A DNA stretch of 64,000 nt from Mobula hypostoma (Eukaryota), in NCBI RefSeq assembly GCF_963921235.1, contig NC_086097.1, forward strand, positions 154,816,001 through 154,880,000, in the 5' to 3' direction. A program made the translations under genes and the position numbers. The notes below the pieces were generated by a model that was not told the origin of the DNA, made no database searches, and was given only the letters and a program-made list of their open reading frames with translations. Within the stretch, counting starts at the first letter, position 1, and each line of letters begins with the position of its first letter. Below, piece by piece: positions 53,061 through 56,184 of this stretch.

Positions 53061-54737
53061 CTGAAGTTGATTACTTTGACAAATACAAATTTCTATGTGG
53101 CAGGACCGTACTGCTTTTCTTTACATTTCATGAGAGTTAGGAATACATGAGGCAATTGAACTGGAGGGGCTGGCCTGCAGACTATGAACCTGAGACTCTC
53201 TATGTTGATGGCAACACATGCTTTACAAGCTTCTTCCGAAAGGATCTGTGAGAGGTCTGCAACTACAGTATATAACTTAAGAAATTCAAAGCAGACATAT
53301 GTTTTATCACACTTCAGCTGGGCTTTCCCAAGACTGAGGGTAATTCCATAATTAGCCCTTTGTTTAAATGCATGTGCAATGCCATCTGAAATCACAATGT
53401 TTAATGGACATGTGCATAGATAGAACAGACCTAGAGAAAGATGGGCAAATGGGAACAGCACAGATAGACATCATGGATTAAAGAGTCTGTTTCTGCGCTG
53501 CATTACTCTATGACTTTGAACCGTTTGTTGAAACAACCTGTGTTATTGTATGACTGTCCTGTGTGAAGAAATACAGGGAATCTATCAGGTAAGCCTTTGA
53601 TATGTTCCAACATGCTGTTTTATATATATTTCACCAATTTACTTTCTATCTCTGCCAACAATGCTTGAGCTCACTTCAACAGTTTACGTGTGAGAGAGAA
53701 AAGTCGTAGTGGGGTGTTGGTGATAGGGGAGCTTGTTAAAAGACAGAAACAATAAATTACCATTATATAATGATAATTATATCAGTACAAGTTTCACAGA
53801 CAATTTCATGTTTCAAGATATTCTGACTATTTTTCCATATAATTAATTTGGAGAAAAATGCACTCTTAGTATTAACTTTTTAAAATTAATTTTAATGCAT
53901 TTCTACAGTGAAACTACAAAGAAGAACCCAACAACAAAATGGAGATTTAAACAGTGCAAAACAAACAAATCCAATATCTAATTCATAACAGGAAGAAAAA
54001 GAAATATTAACTTCTAAAGATAAAATTAATTATGCAGCTTACACAAGCTACAGGCCAATTGTCAAGTAGATACAAAACACAATTATCCAGGATGATCAAA
54101 CAGGAGTGTCAGGATTATTATTTCATTCCAGTAATTCAGTAATTCCTGATAAGATACACAATACAATTTATGCAATGCTTCTAGCTGTCCAACATTGTTA
54201 GATTCAATGGCAAGAATCCAACAGGCATCTCACTAATGCCAAGATATGGAGGCCAAGTATAACCAGCAGAGGGATGCAAAAATCCAAGCAATCCATTCAG
54301 CATCCAATCGAACACCACCTGTGGCAACATGTGCAGATCCCACTAAAACACAGTCACCTCAGAAAACAGGTATAACATGCTCAATTCCAAAATACTGCCT
54401 GGGAAAAAGGAGAAGTAACCCAAAGGGTGGGCATTCTTCATTATCAATTCATCTTTCAAGATCAGATTTGGAGAGAAGTTAAAATGGCACACAAACTTGA
54501 TTGTTAAAATAAAAACTATGACAATCTTCTTTGGGATATTCAGTCTGAAAAGTGTTTTGAAGCCACATGATGGGAAGAAAATGATTTTAAAAACTTAGCA
54601 AATCGGACAGCATTTATGAAAGGAGAAGCAGTTAATATTCAAACAACAGGAATTCTGCAGAGGCTGGAAATTCAAGCAACACACATCAAAGTTGCTGGTG
54701 AACGCAGCAGGCCAAGCGGCATCTATAGGAAGAGGCG

Positions 54738-54780
54738 CAGTCGACGTTTCAGGCCGAGACCCTTCGTCAGGACTAACTGA
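54738..54780 (-). ncRNA. Minimal type I hammerhead ribozyme motif, intact core
   Basis: aguc CUGACGA agggucucggccu GAAA cg UC gacug; helix I aguc/gacu; palindromic ACGU helix III. Confidence 0.8.
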
Positions 54781-55463
54781 AGGAAGAGTAAGGGATTTGA
54801 AAGCTGGAGGGGGAGGGGGAGATCCAAAATGATAGGAGAAGACAGGAGGGGGAGGGATAGAGCCGAAGGCTGGACAGGTGATAGGCAAAAGGGGATACGA
54901 GAGGATCATGGGACAGGAGGTCCGGGAAGAAAGACGGGGGGGGGGGTGACCCAGAGGATGGGCAAGAGGTATATTCAGAGGGACAGAGGGAGAAAAAGGA
55001 GAGTGAGAGAAAGAATGTGTGCATAAAAATGAGTAACAGATGGGGTACGAGGGGGAGGTGGGGCCTAGCGGAAGTTAGAGAAGTCAATGTTCATGCCATC
55101 AGGTTGGAGGCTACCCAGACGTCTGGGTAGCTTCCAACCTGATGGCATGAACATTGACTTCTCTAACTTCCGCTAGGCCCCACCTCCCCCTCGTACCACA
55201 TCTGTTACTCATTTTTATGCACACATTCTTTCTCTCACTCTCCTTTTTCTCCCTCTGTCCCTCTGAATATACCTCTTGCCCATCCTCTGGGTCACCCCCC
55301 CCCCGTCTTTCTTCCCGGACCTCCTGTCCCATGATCCTCTCGTATCCCCTTTTGCCTATCACCTGTCCAGCCTTCGGCTCTATCCCTCCCCCTCCTGTCT
55401 TCTCCTATCATTTTGGATCTCCCCCTCCCCCTCCAGCTTTCAAATCCCTTACTCACTCTTCCT

Positions 55464-55506
55464 TCAGTTAGTCCTGACGAAGGGTCTCGGCCTGAAACAT
55501 CGACTG
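55464..55506 (+). ncRNA. Minimal hammerhead ribozyme motif
   Basis: aguc CUGACGA agggucucggccu GAAA ca UC gacug. Confidence 0.7.
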
Positions 55507-56184
55507 CGCCTCTTCCTATAGATGCTGCTTGGCCTGCTGCGTTCACCAGCAACTTTGATGTGAGCAGTTAATATTTGAGGTTTGGGAACCTGTCAGTATT
55601 GAACATTCTAAGGACATAGACTAAGTTGCCAAATTAGTTAGCTGGATATACAAGTTCAATCAAAATTTAAATTCAGTTGGAAATTTGAAATTTTTGCACT
55701 AAAAACTAGAAGACTGTCTAGTTTAGTAATATTCTTCAGCTGGAGAAATTGGTCATCATTCCCTGGGCTGACATATCTCTGTCACTTTTTAAATGTGCTA
55801 CCAAGTTGTTCATTTCAACAGCAGATCGCAATGGATAATAAATGATGAGTTTGCCAATGATGCAAATATCCTCTAGAAACCTTCGTTGATACCTTAAGGT
55901 TCCCCTATTTATGATTAATACAAAGGAAATACTTAGCTTGGCATATGACACCACCATTGTTAGTAAAATCTTAGCCAGCAATGAGAAGGCACACAGGAGT
56001 GAGATACAGTAGATTGACTGGTTGAGTGGTGTAGTAACGACAACTGTGCATTCAATATCAGCAATTGATTGCGGACTTCAAGAAGAGGAGGTCGTGAGAA
56101 CCCACACAAGTCCTCACTGAGGGGTCAGCAATAGAAAGAATAAACACCAAAAGACTTTTGCAAATTTCTATAGGTGTATAGTGA

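What the first reader, a model, noticed from the sequence alone, without database searches (positions are those of the whole stretch)
54640..55562. Spacer-less ~880-bp palindrome of two ribozyme-bearing PLE pseudo-LTRs, inserted as one event in a collagen intron
Seen: the arms fold back exactly at CTACCCAGAC|GTCTGGGTAG (55120/55121). By eye they differ by about four substitutions, a 4-bp indel and one G-run length. A 13-bp TSD encloses both arms, and each arm has a hammerhead motif. Known: PLE insertions often carry inverted partial pseudo-LTRs, and long spacer-less palindromes are unstable. Inference: fold-back priming during reverse transcription produced it; either strand yields a ~440-bp dsRNA hairpin in the pre-mRNA (ADAR/Dicer substrate) that would also mask the ribozyme. 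It is an ORF-less, MITE-looking retro-product.
Basis: partly seen in the sequence, partly recalled or inferred. Interest (0 to 1): 0.7.

Follow-up and report, generated by a model that had tools for sequence, protein, structure and literature searches.

The report
Symmetric head-to-head Penelope retroelement insertion
This 923-base insert in a likely collagen intron is two broken-off tail ends of a very abundant Penelope-like jumping gene joined head to head, an already described and locally common leftover of how these elements insert, unusual only in that both halves start at the same base.

Summary
An 881-nt zero-spacer palindrome (54682-55562) plus a 42-nt one-sided tail lies inside an exact 13-nt target duplication; the arms differ by 4 substitutions, a 4-nt indel and one G-run base. 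Each arm is a 5'-truncated 3' end of a Neptune-type Penelope-like element (PLE). Contigs of two related organisms stop matching at the last TSD base, so the site is likely empty there; no listed contig spans the centre. The architecture (head-to-head truncated copies, tail on one arm, TSD, hammerheads on opposite strands) is published, recurs at 4 of 7 PLE places examined in this window, and this scan noted it before elsewhere in the same genome. The only twist is zero offset, with one shared CG at the junction. The hairpin is predicted only; editing and small RNAs are untested. Both hammerheads depart from the canonical motif and cannot dimerise in cis, so 'masking' has little to mask. Ordinary; interest low.

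The parts
54627..54639 (+). Left copy of the 13-nt target-site duplication (AT-rich, ends in ATT)
   Evidence: family D14, 100% identical; contigs of organisms B and C match up to 54639 and stop
54640..54681 (-). 42-nt PLE 'tail', present on the left arm only
   Evidence: aligns with tails of the 41k, 25k and 49k copies; X1 contig crosses from flank 21 nt into it
54682..55120 (-). Left arm: 5'-truncated PLE 3' end (ORF C-terminus, 3' UTR/pLTR), element-sense on - strand, same sense as the collagen
   Evidence: 87% to the ORF-bearing copy at 14198-15360
54739..54774 (-). Minimal type-I hammerhead layout, left arm: core boxes and CG at 15.2-16.2 kept, U in place of C before GAAA
   Evidence: sequence compared with the description in PMC4209133; no Rfam hit
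55120..55121 (.). Junction: one CG dinucleotide that belongs to both arms (2-nt self-complementary overlap), zero spacer
   Evidence: family copies continue with different sequence beyond 55121 (table 7; copy at 14653)
55120..55176 (+). Last 18 codons and stop of the PLE ORF at the start of the right arm (mirror copy at 55121-55065 on -)
   Evidence: translation; the 14k copy's frame upstream holds a GIY-YIG match
55121..55562 (+). Right arm: 5'-truncated PLE 3' end without tail
55470..55505 (+). Minimal hammerhead layout, right arm, with 55499 G>A breaking the CG at 15.2-16.2
55563..55575 (+). Right copy of the 13-nt target-site duplication
52248..52301 (-). Nearest collagen exon (54 nt, Gly-X-Y, AG/GT ends); the insert lies about 2.3 kb upstream of its acceptor

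Best explanation
The insert is a pair of 5'-truncated 3' ends of an abundant Penelope-like retroelement joined head to head inside one 13-nt target duplication, likely made in a single integration in which both nicked target strands primed their own cDNA and the two cDNA ends were then likely joined through a shared CG. Shown: the anatomy, the family, one source lineage for both arms. Inferred steps: (1) the element's GIY-YIG endonuclease nicked both strands 13 nt apart in an AT-rich site; (2) the + strand nick primed reverse transcription at the outer ('tail') start site and the - strand nick at the inner (tail-less) start site of RNA from the same source; (3) both cDNAs stopped early near the end of the ORF; (4) two strands of identical sequence can pair in register only at a self-complementary word, so annealing at CG, trimming and fill-in gave a zero-spacer palindrome; (5) the arms, likely identical at birth, then gathered 6 independent changes. 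It is likely a dead, passive intronic passenger. About 0.9 for the identity and single real insertion, about 0.55 for the two-cDNA route.
For: Anatomy. Family: 87% to a window copy whose frame carries CX4CXXC, then IY..C..GLLYIG, and a weak Pfam GIY-YIG match (E 0.00043, 21 bits, below the 22.6 cut-off); 129,522 contigs of run X1 lay on the stretch. Arm divergence 4/438 = 0.9% (95% Poisson 0.25-2.3%) fits the 1.1% (14/1238) A-B flank divergence, i.e. identical arms inserted after the split. Derived states lie on both arms (left: 54718, where 99% of X1 depth has the other letter, and the 4-nt loss, whose longer form shows as loose ends in X1, X5 and X7; right: 55132, 55198, 55499). Two-cDNA route: PMC11167929 reports that a PLE protein cleaves and extends both strands, is predicted to be a dimer, and starts reverse transcription at two RNA sites that bracket the tail. 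Tail on exactly one arm in 4 of 4 head-to-head copies in the window; in the other 3 the tail-less arm reaches further 5' (about 600, 39 and 20 nt), so neither arm contains the other. Element ends recur at 54640 and 54682-54688 in contigs from other loci (tables 5, 8). In the 41k copy two sites of the right arm match a variant seen in the 25k copy and in X9 loose ends while the left arm has the other variant, a hint of two templates (2 of 21 differences).
Against: In this copy the right arm is wholly contained in the left arm, exactly as fold-back predicts. Two independently truncated cDNAs ending at the same base needs either coupling or luck; offsets are under 40 nt in 3 of 4 window copies, which fold-back loops explain naturally. 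A 2-nt microhomology is weak and arises often by chance. PMC3846280 reads junction palindromes of PLEs as self-priming, and PMC8557442 ascribes the one-sided tail to endonuclease resolution, which would let fold-back produce the same asymmetry. The in vitro work is on a Poseidon-clade element, not this clade. No listed contig spans the centre or the right junction, the X1 contig enters the tail by only 21 letters (below the tool's 31-letter bridging rule) and X1 may be the assembly's own source; the leftover letters of the B and C contigs were not shown, so the empty site is inferred. n = 4 insertions.
Confidence: 0.55

Rival explanations
1. Fold-back or snap-back: one cDNA primed at the left nick from the tail site, stopped near the ORF end, turned on itself and was copied back; the copy was cut or ended at the tail boundary and joined to the second nick. 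A variant is self-priming on an antisense RNA template.
For: Right arm is a subset of the left arm and both start at the same base; arms share 13 of 200 columns against three other copies; divergence fits identical arms at birth; PMC3846280 proposes self-priming for PLE junction palindromes; small offsets in 3 of 4 window copies.
Against: Family sequence continues only 1 base past the axis, leaving no loop; no hairpin that pairs the 3' end was predicted for truncations at that point of the 14k copy, an 87%-identical stand-in. The copy would have to stop at the family's recurrent tail-less end. In 3 of 3 other window copies the tail and the 5' excess lie on different arms.
Confidence: 0.33
2. 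The palindrome is a member of a non-autonomous, MITE-like family that moves as a unit and shares this fold point.
For: Compact, nearly ORF-less, inverted ends, TSD.
Against: The other 3 head-to-head copies in the window have other junctions. Depth in the bin over the centre, relative to the bin before, is no higher in organism A (0.168) than in B (0.178) or C (0.264), which likely lack the insert; this is a coarse test that would miss a small family. Ends are asymmetric by 42 nt and match PLE reverse-transcription start sites, not transposase TIRs.
Confidence: 0.05
3. Two separate insertions, or a later rearrangement or gene conversion, built the palindrome.
For: The family is very abundant, so neighbouring insertions and ectopic conversion are possible.
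Against: One TSD encloses both arms with none at the centre; arms are 99% alike against 83-88% to other window copies; likely empty site in B and C without either arm.
Confidence: 0.04
4. Assembly or library fold-back artefact.
For: No listed contig spans the centre or right junction (table cut, 265,445 pieces not shown).
Against: A fold-back read would mirror the flank too and give identical arms; here the flanks differ, a TSD encloses the unit, the tail is one-sided, and derived changes sit on both arms.
Confidence: 0.03

Closest known systems
Canonical EN+ Penelope-like element insertion unit, e.g. Pen2a_Av and Pen2/5/6_Av of Adineta vaga (PMC3846280) and the general scheme in PMC8557442 Fig. 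2
   Same: Inverted 5'-truncated copy directly adjacent at the 5' end, head to head; palindrome at the inverted junction; 30-40-bp tail at one end only; variable TSD (8-10 bp there) around the whole unit.
   Different: Here both copies are truncated at the same base, so no ORF body or direct pLTR lies between and the whole unit is one 881-nt palindrome; tail 42 nt, TSD 13 nt.
Dual minimal hammerheads on opposite strands in truncated PLEs (PMC4209133, Schistosoma mansoni)
   Same: Two min-HHR motifs about 100-700 bp apart on opposite strands; here the two motifs are about 700 nt apart.
   Different: Vertebrate host; both motifs depart from the conserved G10.1-C11.1 pair and the right one from the palindromic 15.2-16.2 pair.
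PAc (Poseidon of Anolis carolinensis) in vitro mechanism (PMC11167929)
   Same: AT-rich target with ATT, two RT start sites bracketing the tail, both strands cut and extended.
   Different: Other clade (the parent here has the CX2-5CxxC linker of Neptune/Nematis); in the parts read, that paper does not address inverted junctions.
L1 twin priming (recalled, no call)
   Same: Both target nicks prime cDNA, giving an inversion inside one TSD with microhomology at the junction.
   Different: L1 twin priming copies different parts of one RNA; here both arms copy the same 3' segment, which needs two RNA copies or a tandem transcript.
MITEs / fold-back DNA transposons (recalled) and non-LTR retrozymes (bioRxiv 10.64898/2026.07.22.740005)
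   Same: Short, non-coding, inverted repeats with TSD (MITE); PLE-derived with hammerhead (retrozyme).
   Different: Ends are asymmetric retro-ends with an ORF remnant, no sign of a shared-junction family; retrozymes are head-to-tail or dispersed units, not head-to-head pairs.

Membership tests
EN+ Penelope-like element insertion | Derives from an element with a C-terminal GIY-YIG endonuclease | tested here: met
   Arms begin with the ORF C-terminus and are 87% identical to the 14k copy, whose frame has a Pfam GIY-YIG match at E 0.00043, just under the curated cut-off
EN+ Penelope-like element insertion | Telomerase-like RT upstream of the endonuclease | not tested
   No copy in the window reaches the RT core; no genome held
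EN+ Penelope-like element insertion | Inverted 5'-truncated copy adjacent at the 5' end (head to head) | tested here: met
EN+ Penelope-like element insertion | 30-40-bp tail at one end only | tested here: met
   42 nt beyond the palindrome on the left arm only
EN+ Penelope-like element insertion | Target-site duplication, AT-rich target | tested here: met
   13 nt exact; contigs of B and C stop matching at its last base
Neptune/Nematis-type PLE | CX2-5CxxC motif upstream of GIY-YIG | tested here: met
   Seen in the translated 14k copy against the definition in PMC8557442; seen in the relative, not in the arms
Neptune clade | RT phylogeny | not tested
   No RT sequence in hand
PLE minimal hammerhead | Core boxes, helix I and II layout | tested here: met
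   By eye on both arms; no Rfam match at gathering score
PLE minimal hammerhead | G10.1-C11.1 pair and palindromic 15.2-16.2 | tested here: not met
   U at 11.1 in both arms; 16.2 is A in the right arm, G in the left
PLE minimal hammerhead | Self-cleavage (as a dimer) | not testable with these tools
   Needs an assay; only one sense copy per strand here
MITE | Symmetric TIRs, many copies of the same unit | tested here: not met
   Ends asymmetric by 42 nt; other window copies have other junctions; no depth excess over the centre in organism A, a coarse test
ADAR/Dicer substrate | Edited RNA or 21-23 nt RNAs from the arms | not tested
   No raw RNA reads on offer and no RNA run was laid

The most novel reading that the evidence does not exclude
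Zero-offset PLE palindromes are the footprint of a symmetric dimer that primes two cDNAs from the two target nicks (one at each RT start site), runs them in step, and has them joined at a self-complementary word; head-to-head PLE insertions would then be two-cDNA products, not self-primed ones, and junction offsets across this PLE-rich genome would make the open question of the PLE integration cycle directly countable.
Probability: 0.3. Interest if true: 0.5.

Novelty: new member of a known kind. Interest (0 to 1): 0.2.

Why it matters
As a locus it matters little: a likely inert, lineage-specific intronic insertion among a very large family. Its use is as a clean datum on how PLEs make their head-to-head insertions, which PMC3846280 and PMC8557442 describe as unresolved: a young copy with an exact TSD, a likely empty site in relatives, both canonical 3' ends and a zero-loop junction. 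It also shows that an 881-nt spacer-less palindrome with 99% arms has lasted long enough in a vertebrate intron for its arms to diverge about as much as two species' flanks, without loss of the centre in this assembly.

Tried and rejected
No whole genome is held for this window, so the genome-wide count of zero-spacer palindromes was not run. A 22-nt hammerhead pattern found 0 loci in viral contigs and 1 in metagenome contigs, a GC-rich bacterial-looking contig without any other PLE-like sequence by eye: taken as chance, dropped. Rfam: 0 matches at gathering score; the evalue mode was not run. Reads were laid only on the left flank, left arm and 25 nt past the centre, on 4 of 24 listed runs; all were contigs, tables were cut (15 of 102 joints, 32 pieces shown), so the centre, the right junction and heterozygosity in organism A stay open. 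The opposite-strand joint 54697-54773 and the 'goes back' joint 55121-54674 could not be oriented and were not used. A repeat expected at about 56215, where the B and C contigs would end, has no second copy in the window, so that cross-check gave nothing. TSD search gave clear pairs for this insert (13 nt) and the 41k copy (12 nt), a 10-nt pair with one mismatch at the 14k copy and only 7-nt chance-level pairs for 25k and 49k. Paper searches turned up no paper on zero-offset PLE palindromes, on a two-cDNA model for PLE inversions, or on dsRNA from inverted pLTRs in vertebrates; the library lacks most subscription papers, and no supplements were read, which may hold such junctions. An earlier-findings search for zero-spacer/twin-priming words gave 0. 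Rejected: MITE, artefact, nested insertions (see rivals); ribozyme masking as a function.

Full report
Observation. The window holds an exact 13-nt direct repeat at 54627-54639 and 55563-55575, and between them inverted arms that meet at 55120/55121 with no spacer. This is the only zero-spacer centre with an exact arm of 11 nt or more in the window. Gly-X-Y exons of mostly 45 or 54 nt with AG/GT ends run on the minus strand from 52301 downward, and no further candidate lies above 52301; since 52248-52301 is an internal exon, the insert is inferred to be intronic. The collagen type was not determined.

What the arms are. Each arm starts with the last 18 codons and stop of an ORF and is 87% identical to a copy at 14198-15360 that reaches further into the ORF. 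That frame has a CX4CXXC motif followed by a GIY-YIG-like segment with a weak Pfam GIY-YIG match (E 0.00043, 21 bits against a 22.6 cut-off). The upstream cysteine motif marks Neptune/Nematis-type PLEs in PMC8557442 (passages); no RT was available to place the clade. The arms are therefore 5'-truncated 3' ends joined head to head. Family copies continue past 55121 with ORF sequence (loose ends in all four runs; copy at 14653), so the junction is a truncation point at which one CG belongs to both arms.

Is it real and one event? No genome is held. I laid 4 of 24 listed runs on 53400-55145; all are contigs. In X1 (organism A, possibly the assembly's own source) a 741-nt contig with no difference runs from the flank 21 letters into the tail, short of the tool's 31-letter rule for bridging. 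In X5 and X7 (organism B, one sample) a 1358-nt contig and in X9 (organism C) a 2170-nt contig match the flank up to 54639, the last TSD base, and run on for 640 and 646 letters that do not lie on the stretch. Those letters were not shown, so an empty site is inferred, not read. No listed piece spans the centre; the tables were cut. Internal evidence against an artefact is strong: different flanks, a TSD, a one-sided tail, and derived changes on both arms. At 54718 99% of X1 depth has the right arm's letter; the right arm's longer form of the 4-nt indel appears as loose ends in X1, X5 and X7; at 55132 and 55198 the right arm departs from the 14k and 41k copies, and 55499 is a CpG-type change also seen in the 14k copy. 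Arm divergence (4/438, 0.9%; 95% interval 0.25-2.3%) matches the A-B flank divergence (14/1238, 1.1%), which fits identical arms inserted after the split. Both arms share 13 of 200 columns against three other copies, and carry letters at 54736 and 54804 that make up about a third of depth in A but 2% or less in B, so they come from one source lineage that likely expanded in A.

How common? 129,522 contigs of X1 lay on the stretch (depth is not a copy number). Of 7 PLE-derived places examined in the window, 4 are head-to-head pairs: this one, 41140-42292 (12-nt TSD), about 25780-26181 and about 49049-49216. All 4 have the tail on one arm only. In the other 3 the tail-less arm reaches further 5' by about 600, 39 and 20 nt. 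Only this one has zero offset. The depth ratio over the centre is not raised in A (0.168 against 0.178, 0.178 and 0.264), a coarse sign that no large family shares this fold point. Earlier AI notes on other parts of the same genome describe the same two-armed insertions; they are unchecked and I had formed this reading before seeing them.

Mechanism. PMC11167929 (parts 1-2 of 4 read) shows that a Poseidon-clade PLE protein cuts AT-rich DNA on both strands, extends both, is predicted to be a dimer, and starts reverse transcription at two RNA sites that bracket the tail. The two ends of this insert sit at the family's two recurrent ends (54640 and 54682-54688 in contigs from other loci, tables 5 and 8). 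I infer that each nick primed its own cDNA, one from each start site, and that the two truncated cDNAs were joined at the CG; two strands of the same sequence can pair in register only at a self-complementary word. Microhomology-mediated joining and L1 twin priming are recalled analogies, not from calls. For this reading: a zero loop leaves no cis hairpin, none was predicted at that point of an 87%-identical stand-in; in 3 of 3 other pairs neither arm contains the other; and two sites in the 41k pair hint at two templates (2 of 21 differences). Against: here the right arm is wholly contained in the left, offsets are small in 3 of 4 pairs, 2 nt of microhomology is weak, PMC3846280 (passages and the whole Discussion) reads junction palindromes as self-priming on an antisense template, and PMC8557442 ascribes the tail asymmetry to endonuclease resolution, which would rescue fold-back. 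I put two-cDNA joining at about 0.55 and fold-back at about 0.33.

Function. If the intron is transcribed, folding predicts 446 inter-arm pairs; whether it is edited or diced was not tested. The minimal hammerhead layout is present in both arms, but both have U before GAAA in place of the conserved C, and the right arm has lost the palindromic CG. PMC4209133 (passages) reports that such motifs are built to work as dimers, that a single motif showed no cleavage, and that dual motifs 100-700 bp apart on opposite strands occur; PMC11167929 found ribozyme cleavage not needed for insertion in vitro. Each strand here has one sense copy, so there is likely little activity for the hairpin to mask.

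Comparison with what is known. Inverted 5'-truncated copy, junction palindrome, one-sided tail and enclosing TSD are all described for EN+ PLEs. The insert meets those features where testable; it fails the MITE features tested and the full min-HHR consensus. The retrozyme preprint (passages) concerns tandem or dispersed units. Searches found no paper on zero-offset PLE palindromes or a two-cDNA model for them; subscription papers and supplements were not seen and may hold such cases.

Verdict. Real with high probability, correctly described, ordinary in kind: a new member of a known class whose one unusual trait, the zero offset, is a useful but single datum on PLE integration. Interest 0.2; the most novel reading (two coupled cDNAs as the general route) has probability about 0.3 and would deserve about 0.5.

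Noticed in passing
window 41128-42305: Older head-to-head PLE pair with a perfect 12-nt TSD, short tailed arm and long tail-less arm with ORF remnant; arms 183/204 identical, two sites match different family variants; 47-nt-scale deletion in the right arm.
   Followed up: partly
window 25780-26181 and 49049-49216: Two more decayed head-to-head PLE pairs of an older subfamily, offsets 39 and about 20 nt, tail on one arm; no clear TSD.
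   Followed up: partly
window 14198-15360 (-): Single-arm PLE copy with a 242-codon open stretch covering the linker cysteines and GIY-YIG domain, partial tail, possible decayed TSD.
   Followed up: partly
window 52562-52784 (-) and 12291-12322 (+): Decayed single PLE 3'-end fragments; the first lies about 260 nt upstream of the collagen exon acceptor at 52301.
   Followed up: no
window 8735-52301 (-): At least 15 Gly-X-Y exon candidates, mostly 54 or 45 nt, some 36 or 63 nt; several candidates found by only one of the two scans; type not identified.
   Followed up: partly
window 60583-63307 (+): LINE-like frames (endonuclease and RT-like motifs by eye, 643 and 232 codons), with related fragments at 35386-35806 and 38052-38508.
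   Followed up: no
window 4368-6337 (+): Integrase-like frame of an LTR-retrotransposon type by eye, between two 87%-identical 286-nt direct repeats at 4153-4438 and 5915-6201.
   Followed up: no
window 9756-10166: Inverted repeats of about 82 nt (81% alike) bounding about 410 nt, resembling a small DNA-transposon remnant.
   Followed up: no
window 30982-32322: RT-like frames of another LINE-type element, with a 480-nt inverted relative at 45216-45671.
   Followed up: no
window 54736 and 54804: Letters carried by both arms make up about a third of family depth in organism A but 2% or less in B, suggesting a subfamily that expanded in A after the split.
   Followed up: partly
L001 752-773: Exact match to the 22-nt hammerhead pattern inside a GC-rich bacterial-looking contig; taken as chance.
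   Followed up: partly
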